45,041 bases of DNA from a virus (taxonomy: Duplodnaviria > Heunggongvirae > Uroviricota > Caudoviricetes): IMG/VR virus record IMGVR_UViG_2802429245_000013; one strand, given 5' to 3'. Under the pieces are notes generated by a model. The model worked only from the letters and a program-made list of their open reading frames with translations. It searched no databases and was not told the DNA's origin. The translations under genes and the position numbers were made by a program. Below, piece by piece: positions 1 through 44,472 of this stretch (positions within the stretch are counted from its first letter, which is position 1; each line of letters opens with the position of its first letter).

Positions 1-834
1 CTCGCCCTGACCTTCACTGGTAGGGATAAGGTGCAGGCACTCTTCCGAACGACGAAAAATCAGACCAAAGGCTTCGTTGAAAATCCTCAGCGCATTAACA
101 CCACGGATTTTCAGTTCCCCGGTCATCAAATCACCAGATTTTTTTACATATCGCAGATCAAAATCTGAATAGATATTTCCAGGATTTATCACACTGAAAT
201 AGCTTTTCTCGCTATCAAGAAGGCAAATCAAAGGAATACCCTTAATGATATCATTCGCCACCAGCTCGGACTTGTTCCCCTTATAAAGTGGGAACGTACC
301 AAGAACCTTTCCGCCTAGTGTTAGTTGAAGTGTCGCCGCGTTGGTATTGTTCTGAACGGGGAAAACGATAATCGGGGTTCGTAGCGTCCAATCTGTACCC
401 TCATTAACAAAAAACGTCGAGGGAAGTTCCAGCGTCAGTGTGTTTGCAGTGCCACCAGCAACACCCGCAATATAATGACCGCTCTGAAGCTGCGCAATCT
501 GTACGAAATAGTTTTCCGATCCACGCGTGGCAAAGTTAGCCACAACGTCATTAAGGGACCAACCTTTCGCGGTTGTTCCTTCCTGCCCACGAATGACTTT
601 CAGCACATCACCGCTTACCGATACCAGGTGACAAATCTCAAATGCAGACTCTTTATTATCGGTAAGCGTAATTTTTGCATAGACGCGTTGCCCGTTCGAT
701 TTATTTTCAAAATCGGCAGAAAGCAATTTTGCAAATTTAGCTCCCGTGCCCGGCATCACCGGAATATCAGTCTGAATCGTCGTAATATCACCAGCCAGTG
801 CTGAAACAACGTTATTGCCGAATCCAAGAATCAT
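1..834 (-). CDS. Tail fibre protein, N-terminal 278 codons; gene continues beyond window start
   Basis: Minus-strand frame open from 834 to position 1 (hand-translated; not in ORF track because no stop in window). ATG at 834-832 overlaps stop of upstream gene (ATGA). Translation MILGFGNNVVSALAGD...DLRYVKKSGDLMTGELKIRG is tail-fibre-like; last gene of tail operon. Confidence 0.6.
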   Translation of the reverse strand, partial: MILGFGNNVVSALAGDITTIQTDIPVMPGTGAKFAKLLSADFENKSNGQRVYAKITLTDNKESAFEICHLVSVSGDVLKVIRGQEGTTAKGWSLNDVVANFATRGSENYFVQIAQLQSGHYIAGVAGGTANTLTLELPSTFFVNEGTDWTLRTPIIVFPVQNNTNAATLQLTLGGKVLGTFPLYKGNKSELVANDIIKGIPLICLLDSEKSYFSVINPGNIYSDFDLRYVKKSGDLMTGELKIRGVNALRIFNEAFGLIFRRSEECLHLIPTSEGQGE

Positions 835-1457
835 TTTTGAATCACCGTTGTTGCATAGGAATAAATAAAAGGGAGTTTTACATATTTCTGGTCAATGGCA
901 TCTTTCAGAAAATAGCCTATACCATCACCATATTCTGGTATCTGAATAGAAAAAACACTGTCCGATACAGTCACGCTCACATCAAAAGTGTGCTGCAACG
1001 GCGGGTCTATTCCGTTTTTCCCATGAATGAACCGCGCCACACGGCGCTTTAACCAGTCAATGCAGAAATGCGAACCGTCAGCCTTATAAAAATTCCACGT
1101 TAATATTCGTTTGAAATAATCATCAGGGACATACGATGCCTGCCCCGGAACGTAATTCCGCATTGCTGCGTACGGGATCGTATTGTATTCAATGGTATCG
1201 TATGCGCCGCGTGCAATAGCCTCCTCGGAAACCTGTAGTAAAGGCCTTTCAACGCCATAAATCCCGAGTGCAATCCAGTCCAGCAATTGCCCGGTTATTG
1301 ATTCCGATGTCCAGCATGGCAATGCCAGATTGTTGAGTGAATCGAGGTATTCCTGAGCAATTTCATTGTATGCATCAAAGAACGCAACAACATTCGGATC
1401 ATCTCTGTACTGCACAAATGGATAAGCAGGGAGAATTTTCTCAGTCAGATATTGCAT
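831..1457 (-). CDS. Baseplate protein (P2 gpI / Mu gp48-like position), about 208 aa
   Basis: ORF 831..1565 trimmed to first ATG after upstream stop (MQYLTEKILPAYPF...); lies between J-like gene and tail fibre. Confidence 0.45.
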   Translation of the reverse strand: MQYLTEKILPAYPFVQYRDDPNVVAFFDAYNEIAQEYLDSLNNLALPCWTSESITGQLLDWIALGIYGVERPLLQVSEEAIARGAYDTIEYNTIPYAAMRNYVPGQASYVPDDYFKRILTWNFYKADGSHFCIDWLKRRVARFIHGKNGIDPPLQHTFDVSVTVSDSVFSIQIPEYGDGIGYFLKDAIDQKYVKLPFIYSYATTVIQK

Positions 1458-2667
1458 ACTTGTTGACCTGAACCTGTGATGCCACCGTTGAAAAATAGGA
1501 ATAGGTATCGCCATAAACCAGGCTTGTGTCTTTTGCCGGAAGAACAATATGGCCGTTAATACCAATGCTCACACTGATTGTTGAGATCAACGTCGCATCA
1601 ACCAGCAATTTTACGGAGCTGGTAAAAATATCCTGGATTCGCAGCAGATTTATCGGGTGACCGACTTCAATAGAATTGATGTAATCAGCAACGTTTTGCT
1701 GCACAGCCATAGCAATACCCGCCGGATCAACATAATCATCAGACACCGTGTTCCAGGTGATTAGCACCATGACGTTTTGTGATGACGGGATAACGAACGG
1801 CACCTGATAAACGTCCGGCGAAACGGTTATTGAAACCGTGCGTTTTTCCACTGCCGCACCGGATGGATTGCTAACATCGTTGGTCAGTTTCGAAATATCC
1901 GGTACAGATTTGTAAATCGCATAAGCCACATCATACGGATCACCGCCACCAACAACCGCAACCCATTTCCCCAACGACGACTGCCGGAAAGAAATCAGGT
2001 TTTCTCGCACACCGCTTACTGATTTGAGCATCGCTTTAAAGCAATCCGGTGTTCCCTGCACACCAAACATGCCGGACTCCATGACTTCGGCGCGGTATGA
2101 TGCCCACGTTTGCGCCTCCTGACCTGGCATCCCTGCGGTTAGGTTGGTGCATTTTACAGGCTGGTCTTTGGGTACTGATGTAATGACCTGCGTCACGGTC
2201 CCTTCCGGTACAGCCCATGAGCCTGACGTAGTGGCCACACAGTAGACTGGTTCAGTCTGCCCACTTTCCGGCACCACCGTATCGCGGGAAACCGCATACT
2301 GGTAGTTACCGTCTCCAACCACAAATCCTTTAGGGATACCAAACCCCGGCAACGCCTCAAACACCACGTATACCGCCGTATTTGTACTTAATCCCTTCTG
2401 TGCTCCATAAATGTTTCCGAGTTGCATCAGTAACGGAATATTTGCGCCGTATGGGCTTACGGAGTTAATAAGGTCCACCCGCGCCTGGTCTATTAATGCC
2501 AGCGCCCCGACAGCCGTGCTGGCAAGGTCTGTAATAAGTCCTGCCGGAAGGTTGGCTGTATATCCAGGTACTTTTTCAGCAACTCTGGTGATAAGATTCG
2601 CGAGCAAATCATTGGGTGGCGTAGGCTGCGCACCCGCACTGGTCATAGTAATTGGTATTTCAGACAT
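1441..2667 (-). CDS. Baseplate J-like protein (gp47/J family), 408 aa
   Basis: ORF track 1441..2667; size and position upstream of gpI-like and fibre genes in a contractile-tail baseplate cluster. Confidence 0.55.
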   Translation of the reverse strand: MSEIPITMTSAGAQPTPPNDLLANLITRVAEKVPGYTANLPAGLITDLASTAVGALALIDQARVDLINSVSPYGANIPLLMQLGNIYGAQKGLSTNTAVYVVFEALPGFGIPKGFVVGDGNYQYAVSRDTVVPESGQTEPVYCVATTSGSWAVPEGTVTQVITSVPKDQPVKCTNLTAGMPGQEAQTWASYRAEVMESGMFGVQGTPDCFKAMLKSVSGVRENLISFRQSSLGKWVAVVGGGDPYDVAYAIYKSVPDISKLTNDVSNPSGAAVEKRTVSITVSPDVYQVPFVIPSSQNVMVLITWNTVSDDYVDPAGIAMAVQQNVADYINSIEVGHPINLLRIQDIFTSSVKLLVDATLISTISVSIGINGHIVLPAKDTSLVYGDTYSYFSTVASQVQVNKYAISD

Positions 2668-2678
2668 ATCTACCCCAT

Positions 2679-2703
2679 AAAAAAACCGCCGAAGCGGTTT
2701 TAA
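2679..2703 (-). terminator. Rho-independent terminator of the moron gene (also usable on + strand)
   Basis: A-run then hairpin AACCGCCGAAGCGGTT then T-rich; on minus strand the hairpin is followed by TTTTTTT, immediately downstream of the 2710..3456 gene. Confidence 0.6.
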
Positions 2704-2709
2704 GTTAAC

Positions 2710-3456
2710 TTATTTTGCCTGTTTCATTTTTTCCACCCTCTCAAGCATTCTTTTTACATTTGATGGAGGATAGTTAAATTCATCGCCGTCTCCAAAAGAA
2801 ATTTTTATAGGCTTCATTTTCATAACCAATTCTTTCAGAACCGCTTTACCAATTTCAGTTTTTGGTACTATAAAACCATTTCCATACAAGCATGATTTAT
2901 AAGTTTTATAATATTCACCATTAATCAAAATTGGTGGATACTCTAATGGTCCATCAATTTGCACTGAATTATCGCAAAATCCATTGCCTTTAGATTTTGA
3001 AGCAATAAAAATAGCTATTGTCCCATCATCGCCATACATCAGGAATCTATTTTTACTAACACCTTCCAGTGGAGGTAATATTATCAGTGCACCATCAATA
3101 TACCATTCAGCGTAATTCTTTGATTCATTGATTATGTTCTCATTAATTTCATTTAAAGATGAATATTCCCTGAATGCATTAGAATACCATTGTCGAACAC
3201 ATGATTCTGTTTTGCACTTCTCTCTTTCATTCCACAAGTCTGAAACAATTTTTCTAAAAGCTTTCTTATCAGCGCTCTCTAACTTTACTTTTTGATATAA
3301 AGAATTTAATTTATCATCAAGTTCAGATAATTCACTGTTGCTGCAAATTAACTTTTCAGAATATGATTTAGCTTTCGAGCAATCAAAAGATACCGCATTC
3401 GCAGTTCCGATTTGTAATAAAAAAGCAAACACTACAAATAATTTAAACTTAATCAT
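2710..3456 (-). CDS. Secreted moron protein: signal peptide plus DUF1311/LprI-like Cys-containing N-terminal domain, unknown C-terminal domain
   Basis: ORF track 248 aa; N-terminal hydrophobic leader MIKFKLFVVFAFLLQIGTANA; motif CSKAKSYSEKLICSNSELSELDDKLNSLYQKV...C...C; strong RBS AAGGAG 7 nt before ATG; visibly AT-rich relative to flanks. Confidence 0.6.
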   Translation of the reverse strand: MIKFKLFVVFAFLLQIGTANAVSFDCSKAKSYSEKLICSNSELSELDDKLNSLYQKVKLESADKKAFRKIVSDLWNEREKCKTESCVRQWYSNAFREYSSLNEINENIINESKNYAEWYIDGALIILPPLEGVSKNRFLMYGDDGTIAIFIASKSKGNGFCDNSVQIDGPLEYPPILINGEYYKTYKSCLYGNGFIVPKTEIGKAVLKELVMKMKPIKISFGDGDEFNYPPSNVKRMLERVEKMKQAK

Positions 3457-3659: not shown

Positions 3660-3788
3660 CCGAACAATGTCGGGAGGGCGACGAATACAACACCCGAAAG
3701 GGGAATAAGTCCGCGGCCTCACTGAGCCGTTTCGAACCTCCCGGCTCCACTCCGATAGTGGAAATTCGAAAAAATCAGTGAGGTCGTT

Positions 3789-4358
3789 ATGACAATACAA
3801 TTAATCCCCGTTTTCAACGGAACTATCTCAAACGAAACCGCCCTACTCTGTAATGCTCGTGATCTGCACGCTTTTCTTGGTGTAGGTAAGGTTTTCGCTG
3901 CCTGGATTACATCCCGCATCGCAGAATACGGATTTACAGAAAATCAAGATTACATTTTGCTTTCCAAAACAGGAAAGCAATCGTTAGGAGGCAGAGGAGG
4001 ACATAACCGCAAGGACTACCACCTCACCCTAGACACTGCCAAAGAGCTGGCAATGGTCGAGCGCAACGAAAAAGGACGCCAGATCCGCCGATACTTCATC
4101 GAGTGCGAGAAGAAGCTGCGCGAAGATACCACCAGCACACAATCCCCTCTGAATGTTGACATCATCATGCGCGTCAGAAACGGCTCGGTTACCCACATTG
4201 AGCACCACAAATCAGGCTCAGTTATCACCACAGAATGGGCAATTCACTTACTACGCAAAAGTGGATGGATTGTCATGCCACGCGATGAACTTCTTAACAC
4301 GCCACTGGCCCAACTGATGCCCGAAAATTTGACTCAAACCGGAACCTGCGTCCGGTAA
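3789..4358 (+). CDS. AntA/AntB-type phage antirepressor-like protein, 189 aa
   Basis: ORF track; N-terminal region ...ALLCNARDLHAFLGVGKVFAAWITSRIAEYGFTENQDYILL... resembles AntA antirepressor domain; opposite strand to surrounding tail genes; RBS GAGG 5 nt before ATG. Confidence 0.55.
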   Translation: MTIQLIPVFNGTISNETALLCNARDLHAFLGVGKVFAAWITSRIAEYGFTENQDYILLSKTGKQSLGGRGGHNRKDYHLTLDTAKELAMVERNEKGRQIRRYFIECEKKLREDTTSTQSPLNVDIIMRVRNGSVTHIEHHKSGSVITTEWAIHLLRKSGWIVMPRDELLNTPLAQLMPENLTQTGTCVR

Positions 4359-4681
4359 CTGGTCCCATTAAAAAACACAACATCAATGTTATAGGTGGGG
4401 TTCTCTGCCCCATCTACCTTTGAAATTGCCAGCGATGCAAAATACCCGGCAAACTGTTGCTGAACCATGTTCACATAGTAGTCCGGGTAAATTTGCTGCA
4501 CGATGCACTGCTGCGCTGGAATGCCGTAATTCGCGTAAAACGGCGACTCCCCCAACCCCAGCTTTAACGTCTGAATGAGCGTCGTCAGCCAGCCGTAGGA
4601 GAAATCACCGCTGGCGTCTGACTCTACTGCAACCCATTTTTTGTTGCCGTTCGCGTCGGTGACGCGGCCCCATGTTCTCAT
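4334..4681 (-). CDS. Phage tail/baseplate protein, 115 aa (occupies gp25/W-like wedge position)
   Basis: ORF track; size and position between spike (V-like) and J-like genes; sequence itself not recognisably gp25-like to me. Confidence 0.4.
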   Translation of the reverse strand: MRTWGRVTDANGNKKWVAVESDASGDFSYGWLTTLIQTLKLGLGESPFYANYGIPAQQCIVQQIYPDYYVNMVQQQFAGYFASLAISKVDGAENPTYNIDVVFFNGTSYRTQVPV

Positions 4682-5134: not shown

Positions 5135-5848
5135 TTAACCCGGATTTGGTTTCTTTGACGTGATCGTGCTGTTGCCGCTTTGAACCCCAGTCACATCGTG
5201 GCTGTGACCGCTGGCGCTGACACCTTTTATCATCGCGTCGTTTTGCACAGTAAGCGGGCCAATCAGCGAAGCAGTTGTATCCTTCATCTGGGCTTTGTCC
5301 TGGACGATCGGTCCGTTGAGGTGAATTTGACCGTTCATGAAGATATCTTCGGCCTCGAGGTAAACAGCTTTCGACTTTAGCCTGATTTCTTCCGGTGCCA
5401 CCGTTACCGAGCTACTGCCGTCCTCTGTTTTGAGGATCGCGCCATCCGGACCGTACAAAACGATTTTTTGCGGATCTTCGTCGGACCAGTCCTTGTTTGC
5501 CAGTGGCACGAAAAACAGTGGAGTGAGCGACATCGAGTAAGAAAGCGTCGCCATACCGGTTCCCAATCCGGACACACCGCGCAGGGATACATCAGCGGCA
5601 ATTGTTACTCCTCGATCGCCCGGCTGTATCGGGTAACGAATATACGGGAATGTGGCGACAGGGATTGTTATCTGCGGAAAGTTGATCCCCTCCGGCAGCA
5701 TATCAAACTGAACTGTCACTATCTGCCCGCTGACACCGACAACATGGCAGGGCAATTCACGGCCTTTAAGCTCGGCTTGCTGGTTGCCGGAAAAGGACAC
5801 CATTTCCGAAAAGCGTTGGAGAGGTAGTCGTTTTTGAGCGTTTGACAT
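5135..5848 (-). CDS. Baseplate spike / assembly protein V-like, 237 aa
   Basis: ORF track; position after hub gene; Gly/Ser-rich C-terminus typical of spike proteins. Confidence 0.5.
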   Translation of the reverse strand: MSNAQKRLPLQRFSEMVSFSGNQQAELKGRELPCHVVGVSGQIVTVQFDMLPEGINFPQITIPVATFPYIRYPIQPGDRGVTIAADVSLRGVSGLGTGMATLSYSMSLTPLFFVPLANKDWSDEDPQKIVLYGPDGAILKTEDGSSSVTVAPEEIRLKSKAVYLEAEDIFMNGQIHLNGPIVQDKAQMKDTTASLIGPLTVQNDAMIKGVSASGHSHDVTGVQSGNSTITSKKPNPG

Positions 5849-6855
5849 TACACCCTCACCCAGTTTTCAGCATACGCCTCGAACACTGTCACCCATGCAT
5901 CACCATCGGCCGTCAGATACGAGCCAATGTGTCTGACAGATTTAACCATAAATTTTCCGGTAAACGTGGTCGAGTTTTTGGAGATAACGCTAGGAGCCAT
6001 TGTATTAGCCATCACAATCGACGCTGCACCTGAATATAGCCCCTCCGGTAGTTTAACCACATCACCACATCTGATATCACCTCTCATTGGGCATTTGAAA
6101 CTGACAGTAAACGGCTCAATCCAAGTCGGCTGTCCAACCAGTTCATGGGCATGAATTGTTTTAGGTTCTCCCCACTTTGCCGACACGTTATCGTAAATTC
6201 GTATTCTGTCGGAAAGAATGCTGATGGCTATTCCGCTATATTTCGCATCACGCATCATCGCTATGGATGCGTTTTTTACGACCATCGCTAACGAGCCAAT
6301 ATTCTTATAGGACGCAGCCCATCTCTCAGGTAAAACAAGGCTGTCATTGACCAGACATTCAATCTTTTTTTTAGGAAAAGCTTCTTTCAGTGCACGTGCG
6401 ATAACATCCCCTACTTTCTCACCAGCTTCACCTTTACCCTCGATTGAGAAAGGGCTTCCATCTTCTTTTTTTCTGAGCGTTGGATTAATAACCAGATTCA
6501 ACGTCTGGTTGGTGCCAATCCAGTTAGCATAAGCCAGATAGACTTCACCGTAGATGATTTCCCCCTGCTGCTCAGGGTTGGCCAGAGGCAATCCTTCTGA
6601 AAACCCACCCCGCATTCTTACAATACACCCTTGCAAGTTAACGCTCTGTTTAAGCATATCGAGCGGTAAACCATATATCGCAAGCATGGTTCCCGAGTTC
6701 ACCACATCAAGTCCAGTCACCTGCACGTCAAATTCAATATGTAACCCACACCCGGGTGTTTTACTGGTATCAAAAGGCCCGATAGGTTTACCGTTGCAAT
6801 CCACTGGCGGCTTGCCTGTTTTAGGATTGATGATTTCCAGTCGGTAATAGCGCAT
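5848..6855 (-). CDS. Baseplate hub protein (Mu P / late control D-like position), 335 aa
   Basis: ORF track; start overlaps upstream stop; contractile-tail gene order. Confidence 0.45.
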   Translation of the reverse strand: MRYYRLEIINPKTGKPPVDCNGKPIGPFDTSKTPGCGLHIEFDVQVTGLDVVNSGTMLAIYGLPLDMLKQSVNLQGCIVRMRGGFSEGLPLANPEQQGEIIYGEVYLAYANWIGTNQTLNLVINPTLRKKEDGSPFSIEGKGEAGEKVGDVIARALKEAFPKKKIECLVNDSLVLPERWAASYKNIGSLAMVVKNASIAMMRDAKYSGIAISILSDRIRIYDNVSAKWGEPKTIHAHELVGQPTWIEPFTVSFKCPMRGDIRCGDVVKLPEGLYSGAASIVMANTMAPSVISKNSTTFTGKFMVKSVRHIGSYLTADGDAWVTVFEAYAENWVRV

Positions 6856-7121
6856 TACGAAACCTCAAACTGATTAGAACTTTCACGAAAAACGAGTTTC
6901 CCCGGCGAGCAAGGCAGCGCCAGATTGATGTCGTAATTGTCAGGTGACGCGATCAACGGTGTGTACACAATCACGTCGCCAGAACTGTCTTTCAGTTCCA
7001 GGTAGTAACGATTTGCATACAGATTAAACGGAACGCGGGCGAATGTTTCATATTCTCCGATTCTGGCCGTGAACTGAAACGGACCTCGCCCGTCCGGTTT
7101 GAAAGGAATTAACGTTGTCAT
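6855..7121 (-). CDS. Tail protein, 88 aa
   Basis: ORF track; translationally coupled within tail operon. Confidence 0.35.
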   Translation of the reverse strand: MTTLIPFKPDGRGPFQFTARIGEYETFARVPFNLYANRYYLELKDSSGDVIVYTPLIASPDNYDINLALPCSPGKLVFRESSNQFEVS

Positions 7122-35888: not shown

Positions 35889-35904
35889 CAGTCAGACTAT
35901 CTTT
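35880..35904. promoter_or_regulatory. Operator-like inverted repeat AAAGAT-N13-ATCTTT in the immunity intergenic region
   Basis: Read from sequence; overlaps both candidate divergent promoters. Confidence 0.3.
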
Positions 35905-35930
35905 GATAATATTGGTAAAACAAATAAACT
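35903..35930 (+). promoter_or_regulatory. Candidate repressor promoter (TTGATA-16-TAAACT) giving a leaderless or near-leaderless transcript
   Basis: -10 hexamer ends 6 nt before the repressor ATG and no Shine-Dalgarno is present. Confidence 0.4.
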
Positions 35931-35936
35931 CTATGT

Positions 35937-37366: not shown

Positions 37367-37588
37367 ATGATTGCACATCACTTCGGAACTGATGAAATAC
37401 CACGTCAGTGTGTGACTCCTGGTGATTATGTTCTTCATGAAGGCCGGACATATATCGCCTCGGCAAACAATATTAAAAAGCGAAAACTTTATATTCGTAA
37501 CCTGACTACAAAAACATGCATTTCTGACTGCATGATTAAAGTCTTCCTCGGTCGTGATGGTTTACCTGTAAAGGCGGAGTCATGGTGA
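37367..37588 (+). CDS. kilR: KilR, prophage-encoded cell division (FtsZ) inhibitor, 73 aa
   Basis: Translation [49 protein letters not shown]... recognised as Rac KilR; RBS GGAG. Confidence 0.8.
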
Positions 37589-37758
37589 TGACTAAGAAAA
37601 TAAAATGTGCTTACCACCTTTGCAATAAAGAAATTGAAGAAAGCAAAAGTATTAAAAGACCTCTTCATTTCATGCGTGGAGTTATCCCAATGACGGAAAT
37701 GAAAAAATATTGTAGTGAAAGTTGTGCCGAAAAAGACCAGATGGCACACGAACTTTAA
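37588..37758 (+). CDS. ydaE: YdaE-like zinc-binding small protein, 56 aa
   Basis: Hand-found [59 protein letters not shown]; ATG overlaps kilR stop (TGATG). Confidence 0.65.
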   Translation: MTKKIKCAYHLCNKEIEESKSIKRPLHFMRGVIPMTEMKKYCSESCAEKDQMAHEL

Positions 37759-37832
37759 TTAACTGACTATTCGAAACTGAATTTATGCCAGCAATGGCAG
37801 GGATTCGCTCAACCTTAATTAAGGAGAAAAAC

Positions 37833-38108
37833 ATGATTACCAATTATGAAGCCACTGTTGTAACGACCGATGACATTGTTCACGAGGTTAATCTGGAAGG
37901 AAAGCGTATTGGCTACGTGATTAAAACAGAAAATAAAGAAACCCCATTCACTGTGGTTGATATCGACGGTCCATCAGGCAACGTAAAAACACTTGATGAA
38001 GGTGTCACAAAAATGTGCCTGGTTCACATCGGAAAGAATCTGCCCGCAGAAAAAAAAGCCGGATTTCTGGCAACTCTGATTGCAATGAAATTAGGCGGTG
38101 AAATCTGA
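37833..38108 (+). CDS. racC: RacC, 91 aa
   Basis: ORF 37785..38108 trimmed to MITNYEATVVTTDDIVHEVNLEGKRIGYVIKTENKETPF... with RBS AAGGAG. Confidence 0.7.
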   Translation: MITNYEATVVTTDDIVHEVNLEGKRIGYVIKTENKETPFTVVDIDGPSGNVKTLDEGVTKMCLVHIGKNLPAEKKAGFLATLIAMKLGGEI

Positions 38109-38209: not shown

Positions 38210-41200
38210 ATGAGCACAAAACCACTCTTCCTGTTACGGAAAGCGAAAAAATCATCCGGTGAACCTGACGTCGTCCTGTGGGCAAGCGACGATTTTGAAT
38301 CGACCTGTGCCACTCTGGACTACCTGCTCGTTAAGTCAGGTAAAAAACTGAGCAACTATTTTAAAGCTGTTGCCACAAATTTTCCTGTCGTTAATGACCT
38401 TCCCCCTGAAGGTGAGATCGATTTTACCTGGAGTGAACGCTATCAACTCAACAAAGACTCCATGACCTGGGAACTAAAACCGGGAGCAGCGCCAGACGAC
38501 GTTCACCATCAGGAGGATGCACCGGAAACCGAAGAACCGACGGGAGGCCAGGAAGAAAACGCGCAGGCAGACGCCCACGAGGATTGCCAGGATTGCGAAG
38601 TCTCTGTAGCCACTTTGCGGTTCACACAGCGTCTTCTGCACATTTTTACGTATGCAGCCGGGGATCGAAAATACCTGCATCATGCCACCCGTGAACAACG
38701 CAAACACATTACTGCTCTTGAGATGGATCAGGAAAACAGCTATGTCCAGAATCTGCTGTTGGCCATACGCAGCATGGCAGAACCGACAACTCTGGATAAT
38801 GCCGCCCTGCTCCGCCTGACTGATGCAATTAAGGCAGTGTTCTCTATCACGAAAAAACATCAGCCCTATGAATTTAAGAATTTCATTTCAGCCTGGCTGG
38901 ATACCGAACACATTGATCGCGGTCTTCTGACAAAAGAATGGCGAAAAGGGAATCGTGTTTCACGCATCACTCGCACGGCTTCCGGTGCTAATGCTGGCGG
39001 CGGGAACCTCACCGATCGCGGCGAAGGTTTCGTCCACGATCTGACGTCACTGGCGCGCGATGTAGCCACTGGCGTACTGGCCCGTTCAATGGACGTGGAC
39101 ATCTATAACCTTCATCCGGCACACGCTAAACGCATTGAGGAAATTATCGCTGAAAATAAACCGCCCTTTTCTGTTTTCCGCGACAAATTCATCACCATGC
39201 CTGGCGGGCTGGATTATTCCCGCGCCATCGTGGTTGCGTCCGTGAAAGAAGCACCAATTGGGATCGAGGTCATCCCCGCACACGTCACTGAATATCTGAA
39301 CAAAGTACTGACTGAAACCGATCATGCCAACCCTGATCCGGAAATCGTGGATATTGCCTGCGGTCGCTCCTCGGCCCCGATGCCGCAGCGAGTAACAGAA
39401 GAAGGAAAACAGGACGATGAAGAAAAACCACAACCATCTGGCGCAATGGCAGATGAACAGGCAACGGCTGAAACAGTGGAACCGAATGCAACTGAACATC
39501 ATCAGAACACGCAGCCGCTGGATGCTCAGTCACAGGTAAATTCTGTTGATGCGAAATATCAGGAACTGCGGGCAGAACTCCATGAAGCCCGGAAAAACAT
39601 TCCATCAAAAAATCCTGTCGATGCCGATAAATTGCTTGCTGCATCACGTGGTGAATTTGTTGACGGAATTAGCGACCCGAACGATCCGAAATGGGTTAAG
39701 GGGATCCAGACTCGCGATTCTGTGTACCAGAACCAGCCAGAAACGGAAAAAATCAGCCCGGATGCGAAACAACCTGAGCCAGTAGTGCAACAGGAACCGG
39801 AAATAGTCTGCAATGCCTGCGGTCAGACTGGCGGGGATAACTGCCCTGACTGTGGTGCGGTGATGGGCGACGCAACGTATCAGAAAACCTTTAATGAAGA
39901 AAATCAGAATGAATATCAGGAAAAAGGTCTGGAGGAAATGGAAGGCGCTGAACATCCGCACAATGAGAATGCTGGCAGCGATCCGCATCGCGATTGCAGT
40001 GATGAAACTGGCGAAGCGTCAGCTCCTGTAGCAACTGAAATCATGTGGCCGTCATATTTCGAGCCAGGCCGCTATGAAAACCTCCCGAACGAGGTTTATC
40101 ACTCCGCCAACGGAATAAGCAGCACGATGCTGAAGGATGCCCGTATCAGCCTGATGTATTACCACGGGAGGCACATTGCCGGAACTATTCCGAACGAGGA
40201 AAGTGATGCACTGCTGCGTGGGCGGATCATTCACAGCTATGTTCTGGAAACGGATAAATTCGCTGATGAATATGCCATTCCGGTACCGGTTCCTGAATAT
40301 GTGGTTACTACTTCTAACGAACTGATCGCCATCATTAAAAAACACAATGCCAGTCTGCCAGCACTGATGACACCAGAGCAGATGAAAGAGTGGATCGAAA
40401 GCTACAACAGCACTCTTATACAGCCACTGTCTGTAAGTGCTGGGGCCGAAGAAACAGGCATCCTTTACGGTTCACTTCCGGTGGAATTTCGGCGTATTCC
40501 TGAGGGGGAAAAACACACAGCATCAGCAATGAAAGCCTGTATTAAAGAATACAACGCAAGCCTCCCTCCTCTGTTGAAAACCAGTGGAGCACGGGAGCAG
40601 CTTCTGGATCAAATTGAAACTGTAGACCCAGAACTGGCAAAAAAAGAACGTGCTAAATCGTTGCCTTACAACATCAGTGGCACAAAAGAGCAATTAACCG
40701 AAATCGCACGGAAAATTCGCCCGGAACTGGTGACACTGGAGGACTGGCAAAAACGCCAGCAAGAAGAAAACGCCGGGAAAACGTTTATCAGTCCGGATAT
40801 GTATGAACAGGCAAAAAATATTCACGCGGCACTGCAAAACAATACCGATGCAGCAAGGCTACTCAACCACCCGGATCGCAAATCTGAAATCAGCTATTTC
40901 GGGTTTGATGAAGAAACCGGGCTGGAAATCAGGGTCCGCCCTGATATCGAAATCCGGCTGCCATACGAAAGCATTTGCGCTGACGTGAAGTCAGTCAGCC
41001 TCGGTTATGTGCGGCAGGAACGACTTAAAGATCGCCTGCACCTTGAAATTATTGAGCGTGATTATCACCTCAGCGCCGCAATGTATTGCGATGTGGCAAA
41101 CCTGGACAAATTTTTCTGGATCTTCGTCAACAAAGATGTTGGCTATCACTGGGTGGCAGTCGTGGAAGCCTCGCAGGAACTCCTGGAGCTTGGTCGACAG

Positions 41201-41335
41201 GAATATCGCCGGACGCTACGCCAGATAAACGAAGCCCTAGAGACAAACAACTGGCCAGCACCTATTACCGAAAGTTACACCGACGAATTAAACGACTTTG
41301 ATCTTCGTCGTCTTGAAGCACTGCATCTGGCTTAA
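38210..41335 (+). CDS. recE: RecE-like exonuclease VIII, 1041 aa, with C-terminal PD-(D/E)XK (YqaJ/lambda-exo-type) nuclease domain
   Basis: N-terminus [26 protein letters not shown]... and central ...[30 protein letters not shown]... recognised as RecE; C-terminal ...RPDIEIRL...ADVKS... nuclease-like. Confidence 0.75.
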
Positions 41336-42438
41336 TGGAGAACCTGACCATGCAAAATACCAATATCATCACGACAGAGCAGACACCAAATACCATTTCT
41401 GCCAGTAACACTATTTTTAACGTTCAGGCGTTGACGCAACTTCAGGAAGTAGCCGGGTTGATGTCACAGGCCACCGTCACAGTTCCCGATCACCTTCGCG
41501 GAAAACCTGCCGACTGCATGGCAATTATCATGCAAGCCATGCAATGGGGCATGAACCCCTACGCTGTGGCTCAGAAAACACACCTGGTAAACGGAGTTCT
41601 GGGTTATGAAGCACAACTGGTTAACGCTGTGATCTCTAGCTCAAGTGCAATTGTAGGCCGCTTCCATTACAAGTACGAGGGAGACTGGGAGAAATGCTCT
41701 CGCACCCGAGTGGAGACCGTTAAGAAAACGGCCAAAGGAGGCGGAATCTATGAGAAAAAAGAAACGATCCCATGTTGGACCAGTGAAGATGAGTATGGTC
41801 TATCAGTTCGAGTGGGTGCAGTTCTTCGCAGTGAAAGTGAGATTACCTGGGGAGAACCGGTGTTTCTTTCCAGCGTGATTACGCGTAATTCTCCTTTATG
41901 GACCTCAAACCCGAAACAACAGCTCGCCTATCTGGCGTTGAAATACTGGGCTCGCCTTTATTGTCCTGACGTCATCCTGGGCGTGTATACCCCCGACGAA
42001 CTGGAAGAGCCACAGGAAAAAATCATCAATCCTGTGCCGGTACAGAATTATAGCGAGGTAAGCGAGCAGCGAACAGAAACCATCGAACAGCGTATTGACG
42101 AAGCGTGGATTGATGAATTCCGGCAGCGCGTCGAAAGCGCGGCCACGACTGAGGAAACCACTGCATTACGCCAAGAGATAGAGGATCAGAAAAACCAGAT
42201 CGGCGAATTCTTTGCCGAGCTTAAAGGAAAAGTGGTTCGGCGCCATCACCGTCTCAATGCTATTGCCAGTATCGAGAAGATGATAAATGACCTGCCTTCA
42301 TCAGGTGATCCAGAAGCAGAACAAAAATTTACTGCTCTGGAAAATACGCTGAATGCTGCACGACCACATCTGGGTGAATTATATGAGGCGTATAAAACGA
42401 CACTGACAGATATAAAACCAGAATATATCAGCTCCTAA
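41335..42438 (+). CDS. RecT/Redbeta-type single-strand annealing protein, 367 aa
   Basis: Immediately downstream of recE with overlapping stop/start (TAATG); recombinase partner position; N-terminus does not match the K-12 RecT sequence as I remember it. Confidence 0.55.
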   Translation: MENLTMQNTNIITTEQTPNTISASNTIFNVQALTQLQEVAGLMSQATVTVPDHLRGKPADCMAIIMQAMQWGMNPYAVAQKTHLVNGVLGYEAQLVNAVISSSSAIVGRFHYKYEGDWEKCSRTRVETVKKTAKGGGIYEKKETIPCWTSEDEYGLSVRVGAVLRSESEITWGEPVFLSSVITRNSPLWTSNPKQQLAYLALKYWARLYCPDVILGVYTPDELEEPQEKIINPVPVQNYSEVSEQRTETIEQRIDEAWIDEFRQRVESAATTEETTALRQEIEDQKNQIGEFFAELKGKVVRRHHRLNAIASIEKMINDLPSSGDPEAEQKFTALENTLNAARPHLGELYEAYKTTLTDIKPEYISS

Positions 42439-42501
42439 TATTGACTTTGGCGGTGTAGCCTCACCGCCATCACAAAATTTTATTATATGAGAGAAAAGAC
42501 A

Positions 42502-42696
42502 ATGCGGTATGAAAAAGTCAAACCATGTCCGTTTTGTGGTTGTCCATCAGTAACGGTGAAAGCCATTTCAGGATATTACCGCGCAAAGTGTAACGGATGC
42601 GAATCCCGAACCGGTTATGGTGGAAGTGAAAAAGAAGCACTCGAAAGATGGAATAAACGAACCACTGGAAATAATAATGGAGGTGTTCATGTATAA
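42502..42696 (+). CDS. ralR: RalR (Lar) restriction-alleviation protein / type I toxin, 64 aa
   Basis: Translation MRYEKVKPCPFCGCPSVTVKAISGYYRAKCNGCESRTGYGGSEKEALERWNKRTTGNNNGGVHV recognised as RalR. Confidence 0.8.
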   Translation: MRYEKVKPCPFCGCPSVTVKAISGYYRAKCNGCESRTGYGGSEKEALERWNKRTTGNNNGGVHV

Positions 42697-42877
42697 AATT
42701 ACCGCCACTATTGAAAAGGAAGGTGGCACTCCTACTAACTGGACAAGATATTCAAAATCTAAACTAACGAAATCAGAATGCGAAAAAATGCTCTCAGGGA
42801 AAAAAGAAGCAGGCGTTTCCAGAGAGCAGAAAGCAAAACTGATAAATTTTAATTGCGAGAAACTTCTGTCATCGTGA
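42689..42877 (+). CDS. ydaC: YdaC-like protein, 62 aa
   Basis: ORF 42617..42877 trimmed to MYKITATIEKEGGTPTNWTRYSK... with RBS GGAGG 5 nt upstream; overlaps ralR end. Confidence 0.55.
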   Translation: MYKITATIEKEGGTPTNWTRYSKSKLTKSECEKMLSGKKEAGVSREQKAKLINFNCEKLLSS

Positions 42878-42983
42878 GTTGCATTATATCCAAACTAGAA
42901 CTTCATAGGTGATTATTAAAAATCAACCACGCCCGCCAGTATTCTGTATATTTACTGGCGGTCATATCGTAAGAGGTATGGCA

Positions 42984-43265
42984 ATGAATCTTGTGACACT
43001 CAAAACGTGGGGAAAACTCAGATATCCGGATAACCCACCATCAATATCAACGCTGAGACGATGGGCAAGGAATGGAAACATTTATCCTGCACCTGAACTA
43101 CACGGGAGGAGTTACAGGGTGGTTCCGGAGGCTTTCTATATCAACCCAAATAAGGTTGATACCGATATAACACACCATCAACCTAATGGGCGACAAGGGA
43201 GAGACAGTCCGTTACTGGAGAAGTTAAAACATGCAGCGGAAAAAATACGATCCCAATTTGCCTAA
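42984..43265 (+). CDS. xis: Excisionase (Xis), about 93 aa
   Basis: ORF 42909..43265 trimmed to Met with RBS AAGAGG; ...TLKTWGKLRYPDNPPSISTLRRWARNGNIYPAPEL... resembles lambda Xis; overlaps int start by 35 nt. Confidence 0.6.
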   Translation: MNLVTLKTWGKLRYPDNPPSISTLRRWARNGNIYPAPELHGRSYRVVPEAFYINPNKVDTDITHHQPNGRQGRDSPLLEKLKHAAEKIRSQFA

Positions 43266-44307
43266 AAACTTAACATATCGAAGGAGGGACAAAGCATATT
43301 ACTGGCGCAACCCTCTGACGAAAGAAGAATTTACACTAGGTAAAATTTCAAGGAGAGATGCAGTAGCGCAGGCAATTGAAGCAAATCATTATATATACAA
43401 AAACTACTCTCCTGCAGCCTTAATTGAAAAGCTTAAAGGGTTCGACTCATTTACTATGGCAGACTGGATTGAACGTTACAAAACGATTCTTATAAGGAGA
43501 AAAGTGTCCAGAAATACTTATAAAATTCGGATAAATCAACTGGAGACAATAAAAGAAAAATTGGGAGGAATTTTACTGACAGAAATAACCACTCGCCATA
43601 TTGCCGAGTTTCTTGATTTGTGGATTGAAGGAGGGAAAAACACAATGGCAGGATCAATGCGTTCTGTGTTGTCTGATATGTTTCGCGAGGCCATTGTTGA
43701 AGGACGTATATCTCAAAATCCAGTAACGCCAACAAGAGCACCGAAAATAGTAGTTACAAGAGAACGACTGAAACTAAAGACATACAACTGCATCAGGGAG
43801 GCAGCAGATCAACTTCCGGCATGGTTCCCATTAGCTATGGATTTAGCCCTTGTAACAGGACAACGTCGCGAAGACATAACGAATATGCGGTTCAGTGATA
43901 TTTATGATGATCGTCTCCACATCAGGCAAATTAAGACAGGAATGATGATTGCTATCCCCCTGTCACTCAGCCTTCCTGTCGCTGGTCTACGGCTTGGTAC
44001 AGTAGTTGAACGGTGCCGCCTGGTAAGCCGGGGAGATTATCTAATCAGTGCCGGGATTAGAAAAAACAGCCCTGACGGCAGCATTCACCCGGATGGCCTG
44101 ACAAAAAAATTTGTCGCAGCCAGAAAATTAACAGGTATCCAGTTCAGTGAAAACCCACCAACTTTTCACGAGATCAGAAGTCTGGCTGGACGATTGTACA
44201 AAGAAACATGTGGAGAAGAATTTGCCCAGCGCCTACTTGGTCACACATCGGAGAAGACAACAAAAATGTATCTTGATGAGCGAGAAAAAACGTACTTACT
44301 GCTCTGA
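43231..44307 (+). CDS. int: Integrase, lambda-family tyrosine recombinase, 358 aa
   Basis: N-terminus aligns with lambda Int by eye ([38 protein letters not shown] versus MGRRRSHERRDLPPNLYIRNNGYYCYRDPRTGKEFGLG); C-terminal [11 protein letters not shown]...[13 protein letters not shown] catalytic region. Confidence 0.85.
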
Positions 44308-44354
44308 TTTTAACGTAAATGGATTGTTAAATGTATATTGGTTGTGATATAACC

Positions 44355-44472
44355 AAAAAAGACCGGAATACAGAAATTCGAGTAAATTTCGGGGGATTTC
44401 GGGGAGATGCTTGCAACTAATTGATTTTAAATACAATTAAAAAGAGACCGAATACGATTCCTGTATTCGGTC
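44355..44472. repeat. att-region repeats: three copies of GACCGAATAC(A/G) (one inverted, forming a 10-bp-stem palindrome) plus tandem TTTCGGGG(G/A)
   Basis: 44361-44373 gaccggaatacag; 44446-44472 gaccgaatacgattcctgtattcggtc; 44386-44406 atttcgggggatttcggggag. Confidence 0.4.

What the first reader, a model, noticed from the sequence alone, without database searches (positions are those of the whole stretch)
1..44400. Mosaic architecture: Rac-type early region joined to a Mu/SfV-type contractile tail module
Early genes follow Rac synteny, whereas the morphogenesis module has sheath, tube, tape measure, hub, spike and J/I baseplate genes typical of Mu-like or SfV-like myovirus tails. Such hybrids are known but the combination with an apparently intact recET module suggests a functional ancestor-like form of a prophage that is cryptic in laboratory strains.
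Basis: inference. Interest (0 to 1): 0.4.

Follow-up and report, generated by a model that had tools for sequence, protein, structure and literature searches.

The report
Rac-like prophage with myovirus virion genes
This is an intact-looking prophage in Escherichia marmotae that joins Rac-like early genes to a contractile-tail virion module; the combination is already in the databases, the tail is not Mu- or SfV-type, and the phage is not the ancestor of the K-12 Rac remnant.

Summary
The mosaic is real but ordinary. Window 1-44469 is most of one prophage, cut at its left end inside a tail-fibre gene. It is integrated at the 3' end of the sdsR/ryeB small-RNA gene next to yebY in Escherichia marmotae.

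About 47% of the early region (32765-44469) aligns with K-12 Rac at 91-95%. This covers kilR, ydaE, racC, the N-terminal part of recE, ralR, rcbA and ydaT/U/V/W. The integrase, excisionase, attachment site, repressor, RecT and the RecE nuclease domain are different alleles.

The virion module (1-22310) has 24 full-length genes plus the cut tail-fibre gene, and it does encode sheath, tube, tape measure, hub, spike and baseplate J. It shows no detectable sequence similarity to Mu or SfV. From terL to the fibre it is collinear with Pantoea phage PdC23 (Certevirus) at 31-60% amino-acid identity.

The same hybrid is already deposited as Rac-SA53 and pPE4 (94-95% nucleotide identity). It occurs in 79 of 5426 complete E. 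coli genomes.

K-12 Rac is a deletion derivative of a siphovirus-type prophage like vB_EcoS-683R6 (95.5-99.7% identity), so the "ancestor-like form" reading fails. The join with the Rac-common DNA lies inside terS at about 21426.

The parts
1..834 (-). tail-fibre gene, N-terminal 278 codons only; the gene runs off the window start
   Evidence: No stop codon in the 278 codons. 98.6% identical to the first 278 aa of the Rac-SA53 tail1 and pPE4 fibre proteins. Weak match to the PdC23 fibre.
831..1565 (-). baseplate protein in the 'I' position (probable start near 1457, 208 aa)
   Evidence: PHROG 8212. 43% identical to PdC23 gp22, annotated DUF2612. The role is inferred from its position after J.
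1441..2667 (-). baseplate J-like wedge protein
   Evidence: Pfam Baseplate_J E=8e-8. PHROG 6. 99-100% identical to the relatives.
2710..3456 (-). moron: LprI-like protein, named 'lysozyme inhibitor LprI family' by RefSeq
   Evidence: Weak Pfam LprI hit, E=0.003. Among the fetched relatives it is present only in ETEC1706.
3669..3753 (+). Rfam sRNA-Xcc1 element upstream of ant
   Evidence: 72.4 bits against a gathering score of 53.
3789..4358 (+). AntA/AntB-type antirepressor, a moron on the opposite strand inside the baseplate operon
   Evidence: Pfam AntA E=1e-25.
4334..4681 (-). small baseplate protein in the W/gp25 position
   Evidence: PHROG 7986, function unknown. 46% identical to PdC23 gp20. 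The role is inferred from position.
5135..5848 (-). central spike
   Evidence: phmmer hit to phi92 gp138, PDB 3pqi, E=3.4e-5. The homologue in PdC23 is annotated 'puncturing protein'.
5848..6855 (-). baseplate hub
   Evidence: PHROG 196 'baseplate hub', E=6e-43. Full length here, but frameshifted in ETEC1706.
6855..7786 (-). two baseplate/tail genes of 88 aa and 222 aa between the tape measure and the hub
   Evidence: PHROGs 8737 and 7750, function unknown. Homologous to PdC23 gp17 and gp16.
7790..9907 (-). tape measure protein with a transglycosylase-like C-terminal half
   Evidence: PHROG 7694, PHROG 2276 'tape measure', and PHROGs 873 and 7182, which are transglycosylase-containing families. 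The central part varies among relatives.
9904..10598 (-). tail assembly chaperone (209 aa) with an overlapping 97-aa ORF; a T8 run at about 10201-10208
   Evidence: ORF list. PHROG 11810. The T8 run sits just before the overlapping ORF. A programmed frameshift is inferred.
10583..11026 (-). tail tube
11038..12375 (-). tail sheath
   Evidence: PHROG 205 'tail sheath', E=5e-55. 37-38% identical to PdC23, Chronis and Yersinia vB_YenM group-1 phages, which have contractile tails by electron microscopy (PMC9224151). No Pfam sheath family is hit.
12375..14668 (-). four head-tail connector / tail completion genes (314, 151, 146 and 161 aa)
   Evidence: PHROGs 6359, 6560, 6356 and 6737, function unknown. 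Collinear with PdC23 gp8-gp11 at 34-41%. The roles are inferred from position.
14711..15739 (-). major capsid protein
   Evidence: PHROG 6671, and PHROG 264 'major head protein'. Weak Pfam Major_capside hit. 42% identical to the PdC23 major capsid protein.
15754..17686 (-). head protein of 205 aa, and a 440-aa DUF2213 protein that is probably a prohead protease/scaffold
   Evidence: Pfam DUF2213. Weak matches to 'head maturation protease' PHROGs and a TolA-like repeat region.
17667..18638 (-). head morphogenesis protein
   Evidence: PHROG 324, E=2e-37.
18445..19881 (-). portal
   Evidence: Pfam Phage_portal_3. PHROG 146 'portal', E=2.5e-74.
19901..21229 (-). terminase large subunit
   Evidence: Pfam Terminase_6N. 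60% identical to PdC23 TerL. No similarity to the TerL of the siphovirus-type Rac relative.
21219..22310 (-). terminase small subunit; it contains the mosaic junction at about 21426
   Evidence: Pfam Terminase_2. Residues 1-338 are 85% identical to the TerS of vB_EcoS-683R6, and the C-terminal ~40-60 residues diverge.
22314..24214 (-). accessory cassette: 83-aa ORF, TAGT/GREB1-like glycosyltransferase (22501-23451) and ParB_N protein (23426-24214)
   Evidence: Pfam TAGT E=1.4e-35 and ParB_N E=1e-6. Shared with siphovirus-type Rac relatives at 94%. Complete in 867 of 5426 E. coli genomes.
24751..25860 (-). lysis genes: M15 endopeptidase and two holins
   Evidence: Pfam Peptidase_M15_4, Phage_holin_3_7 and Phage_holin_8.
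26547..26700 (-). tRNA-Gly(TCC) and tRNA-Thr(TGT)
   Evidence: ARAGORN. Rfam tRNA.
27067..28507 (-). late-regulation block: Q-like antiterminator (DUF1133), YbcO nuclease and DUF1367
   Evidence: Pfam.
29009..29314 (-). hok/sok type I toxin-antitoxin locus
   Evidence: Rfam sok, 120 bits. Matches the mok/hok region of Rac-SA53.
31351..32808 (-). two Ead/Ea22-like genes flanking a 99-aa ORF
   Evidence: Pfam Ead_Ea22.
32765..35070 (-). replication block: ydaW (DUF1627), ydaV (DnaC/IstB-like ATPase) and a ydaU-like gene
   Evidence: Pfam. 93%, 95% and 81% (C-terminal half only) amino-acid identity to K-12 YdaW, YdaV and YdaU.
35148..36398 (.). immunity region: ydaT (cII-like, -), cro-like HTH gene (35554-35835, -) and a divergent HTH_3 repressor (35937-36398, +)
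   Evidence: Pfam. The repressor is 100% identical to the Rac-SA53 gene annotated dicA and has no match in K-12 Rac. YdaT is 94% identical to K-12 YdaT.
37355..38108 (+). kilR, ydaE and racC
   Evidence: 96%, 74% and 96% amino-acid identity to the K-12 Rac proteins.
38210..41335 (+). recE (1041 aa)
   Evidence: Pfam Exonuc_VIII at the N-terminus and DUF3799 (PDDEXK-like) at the C-terminus. Residues 1-753 are 66% identical to K-12 RecE, and the nuclease domain is only 29% identical.
41335..42438 (+). recT-family annealase (367 aa), a different allele from K-12 RecT
   Evidence: Pfam RecT E=6e-36. No blastp hit to K-12 RecT at E<=10. 99% identical to Rac-SA53 RecT and 63% to pPE4 RecT.
42487..42877 (.). 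ralR toxin (+), a DUF1187 rcbA-like gene (+) and the RalA antitoxin sRNA (42695-42873, -)
   Evidence: Pfam Lar_restr_allev and DUF1187. Rfam RalA, 218 bits.
42909..44307 (+). lambda-type excisionase and tyrosine integrase (358 aa)
   Evidence: Pfam Exc, Arm-DNA-bind_1, Phage_int_M and Phage_integrase. No match to IntR or XisR of K-12 or Rac-SA53. 98% identical to the integrases of pPE4 and JNEC-KY178.
44438..44469 (.). attR core, overlapping the 3' end of sdsR/ryeB
   Evidence: Homology to empty chromosomal sites starts at 44438. Homology to the pPE4 attP region ends at 44469. Rfam places SdsR/RyeB at 44439-44538 (-) and SraC/RyeA at 44435-44579 (+).
44700..45041 (-). host gene yebY (Escherichia marmotae)
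   Evidence: The exact protein is named 'YebY family protein [Escherichia marmotae]'. The flank is 99.3-99.7% identical to four assemblies that carry this exact YebY protein. It is at most 90.9% identical to any of 5426 complete E. coli genomes.

Best explanation
The window holds one temperate phage genome in the prophage state, in Escherichia marmotae. It belongs to the already sequenced Rac-SA53 / pPE4 kind.

How it is built and is expected to work (gene content shown, function inferred):
- A lambda-type Int/Exc pair inserted it into the terminator end of the sdsR (ryeB) small-RNA gene beside yebY.
- A DicA-like HTH repressor faces a cro-like gene and the cII-like ydaT.
- The leftward early operon carries kilR, ydaE, racC, recE, a RecT-family annealase and ralR/RalA.
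- The rightward operon carries ydaU/V/W replication genes, Ead-like genes, hok/sok, a Q-like antiterminator, two tRNAs and lysis genes.
- The late operon then starts with a ParB-like / TAGT-like pair and terS.

From the last ~40-60 codons of terS onward the DNA belongs to a different lineage. This is a complete head-plus-contractile-tail module, collinear gene for gene with Pantoea phage PdC23 (Certevirus), Klebsiella phage Chronis and Yersinia vB_YenM group-1 myoviruses.

The Rac-type early and regulatory region is thus a shared chassis that recombination inside terS has joined to unrelated virion modules. This window carries the myovirus version. K-12 Rac descends from a siphovirus version.
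For: One element:
- The window shows a single integrase, one immunity region, one lysis cassette and one att end.
- The 47.5-kb pPE4 record is collinear with the window and joins the tail-fibre end to int through an attP-like sequence.

Same kind already deposited:
- Rac-SA53 covers 86% and pPE4 covers 87% of window 1-22500, at 94-95% identity. Each covers 48% of the rest at 92-94%.
- 79 of 5426 complete E. coli genomes hold at least 80% of window 1-24000.
- E. coli JNEC-KY178 and M8 carry it at the same yebY site.

Intactness:
- Every virion ORF has the length of its homologue in Rac-SA53 and pPE4, whereas ETEC1706 has three frameshifts.

Virion lineage:
- 22 consecutive genes from terL to the fibre match PdC23 at 31-60% amino-acid identity, in the same order.
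- Relatives with the same sheath are mitomycin-inducible myoviruses by electron microscopy (PMC9224151).
- The tube fold and a gp138-like spike are confirmed.

Junction:
- TerS residues 1-338 are 85% identical to the siphovirus-type TerS. TerL and portal show no similarity to the siphovirus-type proteins.

Host and site:
-.
- sdsR is a known phage attachment site (PMC3333887).
Against: - The left end (the rest of the tail-fibre genes and attL) lies outside the window, so completeness is not shown.
- No experiment bears on this particular prophage.
- No perfect LexA box exists in the window, so the route of induction is unknown.
- The repressor has no visible cleavage domain.
- Whether pPE4 was sequenced from particles could not be checked, because no paper was found.
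- The tube model has only moderate confidence, with mean pLDDT 64.
Confidence: 0.85

Rival explanations
1. One reading: a Rac-type early region joined to a Mu/SfV-type tail module, representing a functional, ancestor-like form of the cryptic Rac of laboratory strains.
For: - The gene order sheath, tube, chaperone, tape measure, hub, spike, W, J, I, fibre is that of Mu and SfV too.
- J falls in the same broad PHROG 6 as Mu gp47 and SfV orf19.
- Several early genes are 91-96% identical to K-12 Rac.
Against: - No sequence similarity to any Mu or SfV virion protein.
- Sheath, tube, hub and W fall in different PHROGs from Mu and SfV.
- There is no Mu N-like DNA-circulation gene; two genes of 222 and 88 aa stand in its place.
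- The head genes are neither Mu-like nor HK97-like.
- K-12 Rac is 95.5-99.7% identical to a siphovirus-type prophage and differs from it by two deletions. Its late remnant shares 297 bp with the window.
- Integrase, att site, repressor and RecT differ from Rac.
Confidence: 0.04
2. A defective prophage that only looks intact. All ORFs are open, but the element can no longer excise, replicate or assemble, through regulatory or missense lesions or a lesion outside the window.
For: - A close relative in ETEC1706 carries three frameshifts in hub, chaperone and terS, so decay of this phage kind is common.
- The left end is unseen.
- E. marmotae HT073016 carries only an integrase remnant and late-regulation genes at the same site.
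Against: - There are no frameshifts, stops or insertion sequences in the window, and all lengths equal those of relatives.
- A near-identical genome is deposited as a complete phage genome, pPE4.
- Related-module phages are inducible (PMC9224151).
Confidence: 0.2
3. Two neighbouring elements rather than one hybrid: a myovirus prophage lying next to a Rac-like remnant.
For: The two halves have different closest relatives.
Against: - No second integrase, repressor, lysis cassette or att site lies between them.
- The switch of relatedness falls inside one open terS gene.
- The same joined arrangement exists in a 47.5-kb phage record and in 79 E. coli genomes.
Confidence: 0.02

Closest known systems
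Escherichia phage Rac-SA53 (KU052037; full-size Rac-like prophage of type II ETEC, Jobling 2016)
   Same: - The same virion module at 94-97% nucleotide identity over about 19.3 kb.
- Identical repressor, 99% identical RecT, 95% identical RecE.
- The same overall order.
   Different: - Rac-SA53 sits at ttcA with IntR/YdaQ, whereas the window sits at sdsR/yebY with a lambda-type Int/Exc.
- Rac-SA53 carries LT-IIa and pertussis-like toxin genes and an IS1, all absent here.
- The nin-like region and the morons in the baseplate operon differ.
'Actinobacillus' phage vB_Apl-pPE4 (PP818812, 47.5 kb)
   Same: - Virion module at 95-97% identity.
- The same integrase (98%) and the same attP core.
- Collinear throughout.
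   Different: - A different RecT allele (63%), a different repressor and different replication genes.
- It lacks the ParB/TAGT cassette and the LprI-like moron.
Cryptic prophage Rac of E. coli K-12
   Same: rcbA, ralR/RalA, the N-terminal part of recE, racC, ydaE, kilR, ydaF/G, ydaT, ydaV, ydaW and the 5' end of ynaK are shared, at 91-95% nucleotide identity over the aligned segments and 66-98% amino-acid identity.
   Different: - intR, xisR, the ttcA att site, racR, ydaS, recT and the RecE nuclease domain are not shared.
- The K-12 late remnant (trkG, ydaY, ynaA, lomR, stfR, tfaR, pinR) has no counterpart here.
- K-12 Rac derives from a siphovirus-type phage.
Siphovirus-type Rac prophages (vB_EcoS-683R6, ON470595) and the lambda-type KingRac
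   Same: - Shared Rac-type early and late-regulatory DNA, the ParB/TAGT cassette and most of terS.
- KingRac shows that full-size Rac-like prophages are inducible and transfer in the mouse gut (PMC6731689).
   Different: - Their virion genes are a P22-like coat with a lambda-like tail (683R6) or fully lambda-like by gene sizes (KingRac; PMC12251178 Table S6).
- TerL and portal are unrelated to the window's.
Pantoea phage PdC23 (genus Certevirus), Klebsiella phage Chronis, Yersinia vB_YenM group 1
   Same: - The whole morphogenesis module from terL to the fibre is collinear, at 31-60% amino-acid identity over 22 genes.
- The Yersinia phages have contractile tails by electron microscopy (PMC9224151).
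   Different: - Early, regulatory, lysis and terS regions show no detected similarity; only the virion proteins, terS and its two upstream neighbours were compared.
- The identity is far below genus level.
- PdC23 shows no integrase in its annotation.
Phages Mu and SfV (Mu-type contractile tail)
   Same: The generic order of contractile-tail genes, and a Baseplate_J-family protein.
   Different: - No pairwise similarity in any protein.
- Different PHROGs for sheath (205 vs 165), tube (6566 vs 185), hub (196 vs 177) and W (7986 vs 180).
- No N-like gene, and different head genes.

Membership tests
Rac prophage in the strict sense (K-12 Rac and prophages at its locus) | Integration into the 5' end of ttcA by IntR/XisR | tested here: not met
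   Int and Exc have no match to IntR or XisR. attR lies in sdsR next to yebY.
Rac prophage in the strict sense (K-12 Rac and prophages at its locus) | RacR/YdaS immunity region | tested here: not met
   The repressor and the cro-like gene have no hit in K-12 Rac. They equal the Rac-SA53 genes annotated dicA and dicC.
Rac prophage in the strict sense (K-12 Rac and prophages at its locus) | Orthologous recE-recT pair | tested here: inconclusive
   RecE residues 1-753 are 66% identical to K-12 RecE and the nuclease domain 29%. RecT belongs to the same Pfam family but gives no blastp hit to K-12 RecT.
Rac prophage in the strict sense (K-12 Rac and prophages at its locus) | Shared early genes kilR-ydaE-racC and ydaT-U-V-W, in Rac order and at high identity | tested here: met
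   91-95% nucleotide identity over 5462 bp, in the same order.
Rac prophage in the strict sense (K-12 Rac and prophages at its locus) | Late region homologous to the K-12 late remnant (trkG, ydaY, ynaA, lomR, stfR) | tested here: not met
   Only 297 bp, the 5' end of ynaK, are shared. A siphovirus-type relative shares 4090 bp.
Mu/SfV-type contractile tail module | Sequence homology of sheath, tube, hub, W and I to Mu L, M, P, gp46 and gp48 (as SfV has) | tested here: not met
   No blastp hit below E=0.037 and none to the corresponding protein; no phmmer hit at E<=1. Different PHROGs, whereas Mu and SfV share theirs.
Mu/SfV-type contractile tail module | A DNA-circulation protein (Mu N, about 450-495 aa) between tape measure and hub | tested here: not met
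   Two unrelated genes of 222 and 88 aa occupy that place.
Mu/SfV-type contractile tail module | Order sheath, tube, chaperone, tape measure, hub, spike, W, J, I, fibre | tested here: met
   Present. This order is common to many contractile tails and does not discriminate.
Rac-SA53 / pPE4 kind (Rac-like early region plus PdC23-like myovirus module) | Near-identical virion module joined to Rac-like early genes in one element | tested here: met
   86-87% of window 1-22500 at 94-95% identity, and 48% of the rest at 92-94%.
Certevirus-like morphogenesis module | Collinear homologues of all virion genes from terL to the fibre | tested here: met
   22 of 22 genes match in order, at 31-60% amino-acid identity.
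Genus Certevirus (taxonomic membership) | Genome-wide nucleotide similarity at genus level | tested here: not met
   No megablast match to PdC23. terS and the two genes upstream of it give no tblastn match to PdC23. The identity of the virion proteins is 31-60%.
Lambdoid temperate phages | Divergent repressor and cro/cII-like genes, leftward recombination operon, rightward replication genes, Q-type antiterminator before lysis and late genes, Int/Xis at one end | tested here: met
   The gene content and order fit. Function was not tested.
Functional (inducible) prophage | Excision, particle production and lysogenisation | not testable with these tools
   Only ORF intactness could be checked. 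The left end lies outside the window.

The most novel reading that the evidence does not exclude
The Rac-type early and regulatory region may be a promiscuous chassis that recombination in the 3' end of terS couples to at least three unrelated virion modules. These are a lambda-type module (KingRac), a P22-coat/lambda-tail module (the K-12 Rac ancestor type) and this PdC23-like myovirus module.

The myovirus module would then be a structurally uncharacterised contractile-tail lineage, because no Pfam sheath or tube model detects it. The ParB-like plus TAGT-like glycosyltransferase pair kept just upstream of terS in all these phages, with K-12 ynaK as its stump, could be a DNA-modification or packaging accessory system that nobody has studied.
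Probability: 0.25. Interest if true: 0.4.

Novelty: already known. Interest (0 to 1): 0.15.

Why it matters
The value is mainly in correcting the interpretation.

- "Rac-like" describes only part of the early region. The laboratory Rac remnant descends from a siphovirus, not from this myovirus hybrid.
- The hybrid itself has been in GenBank since 2016 and is found in about 1.5% of complete E. coli genomes.
- The precise junction inside terS, the swapped nuclease/annealase cassettes behind a conserved RecE N-terminus, and the move to the sdsR attachment site in E. marmotae are tidy examples of modular exchange. None of them is surprising.
- The widespread ParB/TAGT cassette next to terS may deserve its own look.

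Tried and rejected
- Pfam on ten tail proteins found only Baseplate_J, so Pfam could not type the tail.
- PDB sequence searches with the sheath and the hub gave nothing significant: sheath best E=0.059 to a phage Sf14 chain, hub none.
- A search for a perfect LexA box (CTGT-N8-ACAG), to link the antirepressor or repressor to the SOS response, gave no match.
- An exact 50-mer from yebY was not found in the species-representative genomes. The host was identified through the exact YebY protein instead.
- The sheath search in representative genomes found only other Enterobacterales: Pseudescherichia, Pantoea, Erwinia, Winslowiella, Budvicia and Serratia, at 52-75%.
- Jobling 2016 (PMC4957749) is not held, so what it says about the Rac-SA53 tail could not be read.
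- No paper on pPE4 was found.
- I suspected that KingRac might be this myovirus type. Its gene sizes show lambda-type virion genes, so that idea was dropped.
- I first suspected a frameshifted integrase, because of adjacent 118-aa and 358-aa ORFs. They are a normal excisionase and integrase.
- Literature searches for a ParB + TAGT system found nothing.

Full report
WHAT IS IN THE WINDOW

Almost all genes from base 1 to about 35900 lie on the minus strand. The genes from 35937 to 44307 lie on the plus strand. There are two tRNA genes at 26547-26700.

The right end is chromosomal. Rfam finds the paired small RNAs SraC/RyeA and SdsR/RyeB at 44435-44579, followed by yebY at 44700-45041.

The host is Escherichia marmotae, not E. 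coli:
- This flank is at most 90.9% identical to any of 5426 complete E. coli genomes.
- It is 99.3-99.7% identical to four assemblies that carry the exact same YebY protein.
- That exact protein is named "YebY family protein [Escherichia marmotae]" by NCBI and UniRef.

The attachment site was mapped by two comparisons. Homology to empty chromosomal sites begins at 44438. Homology to the attP region of phage record pPE4 ends at 44469. The attR core is therefore about 32 bp and overlaps the 3' end of sdsR. This locus is a known phage attachment site (PMC3333887, citing Balbontin 2008).

At the left end the window starts inside a tail-fibre gene. Its first 278 codons are open and 98.6% identical to the Rac-SA53 and pPE4 fibres. 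The prophage therefore runs off the window there.

IS THE EARLY REGION RAC-TYPE?

Only in part. Six segments align with K-12 Rac (locus L003) at 91-95% nucleotide identity: 33059-34643, 35150-35576, 36612-36925, 36972-38511, 38915-40030 and 42448-42927. Together they make 5462 of the 11705 bp between 32765 and 44469.

| K-12 Rac protein | Amino-acid identity in the window |
|---|---|
| RcbA | 98% |
| KilR | 96% |
| RacC | 96% |
| YdaF | 96% |
| RalR | 95% |
| YdaV | 95% |
| YdaT | 94% |
| YdaW (first 151 residues) | 93% |
| YdaU (C-terminal half) | 81% |
| YdaE | 74% |

The genes that define Rac as a locus and as an immunity type are not shared:
- The integrase (358 aa, with a lambda-type arm-binding domain) and the excisionase have no match to IntR or XisR.
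- The repressor and the cro-like gene have no match to RacR or YdaS. They equal the Rac-SA53 genes annotated dicA and dicC.
- RecE is 66% identical to K-12 RecE over residues 1-753, but only 29% over 133 residues of the nuclease domain.
- The 367-aa RecT-family protein gives no blastp hit at all to K-12 RecT.

Relatives carry still other cassettes behind the same RecE N-terminus. pPE4 has a RecT that is 63% identical. E. coli M8 and KingRac have lambda gam-bet-exo.

Both recE and recT are open and full length. So are the K-12 genes. Their intactness therefore says nothing about ancestry.

IS THE VIRION MODULE A CONTRACTILE TAIL, AND IS IT MU/SFV-TYPE?

It is a contractile tail:
- The 445-aa protein matches PHROG 205 "tail sheath" (E=5e-55).
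- The 335-aa protein matches PHROG 196 "baseplate hub".
- The 408-aa protein matches Pfam Baseplate_J.
- The 705-aa protein matches a tape-measure PHROG and transglycosylase-containing families.
- The 237-aa protein matches the phi92 gp138 spike (PDB 3pqi, E=3.4e-5).

It is not Mu/SfV-type:
- 25 window virion proteins were compared with 44 Mu and SfV virion proteins. blastp gave no hit below E=0.037 and none between corresponding proteins. phmmer gave nothing at E<=1.
- Mu and SfV share PHROGs 165 (sheath), 185 (tube), 177 (hub), 180 (W), 6 (J) and 203 (I). The window's proteins fall in 205, 6566, 196, 7986, 6 and 8212. Only the very broad J family is common.
- There is no Mu N-like gene.
- The head genes are neither Mu-like nor HK97-like as in SfV: a Phage_portal_3 portal, a DUF2213 protease/scaffold-like protein and a weak DUF2184-type capsid match.

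The true relatives are few among isolated phages:
- Rac-SA53 and pPE4 are nearly identical to the window.
- Pantoea phage PdC23 (genus Certevirus), Klebsiella phages Chronis and RothC/D, and five Yersinia vB_YenM phages have sheaths 37-38% identical.

All 22 genes from terL to the fibre match PdC23 in the same order, at 31-60% amino-acid identity. The Yersinia phages are mitomycin-inducible and have contractile tails by electron microscopy (PMC9224151).

IS IT INTACT?

Within the window, yes.
- Every virion ORF has the length of its Rac-SA53 and pPE4 homologue. The closest complete E. coli genome, ETEC1706 (97.5% identity), has frameshifts in hub, chaperone and terS.
- No transposase or insertion sequence was seen.
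- The chaperone gene has a T8 run just before an overlapping 97-aa ORF, which looks like the usual programmed frameshift.
- Regulatory, replication, lysis, Int and Exc genes are all present.

Function itself is inferred, not shown.

WHERE IS THE JOIN?

Siphovirus-type Rac prophages such as vB_EcoS-683R6 share window 21426-24280 at 94% identity. This stretch holds most of terS, an 83-aa ORF, a TAGT-like glycosyltransferase and a ParB-like gene. Nothing to the left of it is shared.

At protein level, TerS residues 1-338 are 85% identical and the last ~40-60 residues diverge. TerL and portal show no similarity. The exchange point is thus the part of terS that would contact its own TerL, which is a classic module boundary (inference).

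A second exchange point lies at 42927, where the Rac-SA53 and K-12 int/xis region is replaced by the lambda-type int/exc.

IS IT AN ANCESTOR-LIKE FORM OF THE LABORATORY RAC?

No. K-12 Rac aligns with 683R6, which also sits at ttcA, at 95.5-99.7% identity. It differs by two clean deletions (L008 15112 to 23311, and 25741 to 37302). These removed the nin/Q/lysis region and everything from inside the ParB-like gene to ydaY.

The surviving K-12 late genes trkG, ynaK, ydaY and ynaA are pieces of that phage. It has a P22-like coat gene and lambda-like H, M, L and I tail genes. Of the K-12 late part (15300-26959 of locus L003), 4090 bp are covered by 683R6 and 297 bp by the window.

IS IT NEW?

No.
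- Rac-SA53 was deposited with Jobling's 2016 description of full-size Rac-like prophages (cited in PMC5917428).
- pPE4 is a second record.
- 79 of 5426 complete E. coli genomes carry at least 80% of the virion half.
- E. coli JNEC-KY178 and mouse strain M8 have it at the same yebY site.
- Full-size Rac-like prophages have been shown to be inducible and to spread in the mouse gut (KingRac, PMC6731689). KingRac's gene sizes indicate lambda-type virion genes (PMC12251178 Table S6).

Rac-type early regions are therefore known with at least three different virion modules. The window adds an E. marmotae instance with its own combination of cassettes.

VERDICT

The "Mu/SfV-type" label and the "ancestor-like form of Rac" idea are both contradicted by direct comparison. 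Interest is low.

Noticed in passing
window 22314-24214 (minus strand): A ParB_N-domain protein (23426-24214), a TET-associated/GREB1-like glycosyltransferase (Pfam TAGT, E=1.4e-35; 22501-23451) and an 83-aa ORF sit directly upstream of terS, with overlapping ends. The cassette is complete in 867 of 5426 complete E. coli genomes, far more than carry the myovirus module (79). K-12 ynaK is its truncated 5' stump. No TET/JBP partner was seen, and no literature on this pairing was found.
   Followed up: partly
window 3669-3753 (+), upstream of ant at 3789-4358: Rfam family sRNA-Xcc1 matches at 72 bits (gathering score 53), immediately upstream of an AntA/AntB antirepressor gene. That gene lies on the opposite strand inside the baseplate operon. 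Together with an LprI-like gene (2710-3456), it forms a variable moron island between the W-like and J genes. Relatives carry other genes there (a Rha regulator in ETEC1706, rac61/62 in Rac-SA53).
   Followed up: no
window 38210-42438; loci L003, L004, L016: The N-terminal ~750 residues of RecE are conserved across relatives (66% to K-12). The nuclease plus annealase part behind them is swapped as a cassette. The variants are the K-12 type, the window/Rac-SA53 type (DUF3799 plus a 367-aa RecT), a third RecT in pPE4 (63%), and lambda gam-bet-exo after a shortened RecE in E. coli M8 and KingRac.
   Followed up: partly
locus L004 (PP818812.1): The record named 'Actinobacillus phage vB_Apl-pPE4' is 95% identical to Escherichia prophages. 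Its attP region matches the Escherichia sdsR terminator, so the stated host looks doubtful.
   Followed up: partly
window 18445-19881 (minus strand): RefSeq annotation of the homologues calls this protein 'anti-CBASS protein Acb1 family'. Here it matches Pfam Phage_portal_3 and PHROG 146 'portal' (E=2.5e-74) and sits in the portal position. The RefSeq name is probably misleading.
   Followed up: partly
window 42487-42877 and 29009-29314: Two type I toxin-antitoxin loci are carried by the prophage: ralR with the RalA sRNA (Rfam, 218 bits), and hok with sok (Rfam, 120 bits).
   Followed up: no
window 9904-10598 (minus strand), T8 run at about 10201-10208: The tail chaperone gene has a run of eight T just before an overlapping 97-aa ORF. 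This is likely a programmed translational frameshift. The ETEC1706 homologue is flagged 'frameshifted' by RefSeq.
   Followed up: no
locus L018 (CP025979.1), 6735-12342: The assembly CP025979.1 (from memory, E. marmotae HT073016) has a shortened integrase (266 aa), a transposase and a DUF1367/YbcO/Q-like block at the same sdsR-yebY site. This is a decayed relative of the window's prophage.
   Followed up: no
loci L010-L015: Sheath homologues at 52-75% identity occur in prophage-like regions of Pseudescherichia, Pantoea stewartii, Erwinia, Winslowiella, Budvicia and Serratia. The tube protein is 'hypothetical' with no Pfam domain in all 106 database clusters found. This contractile-tail lineage is widespread in Enterobacterales but unannotated.
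   Followed up: partly
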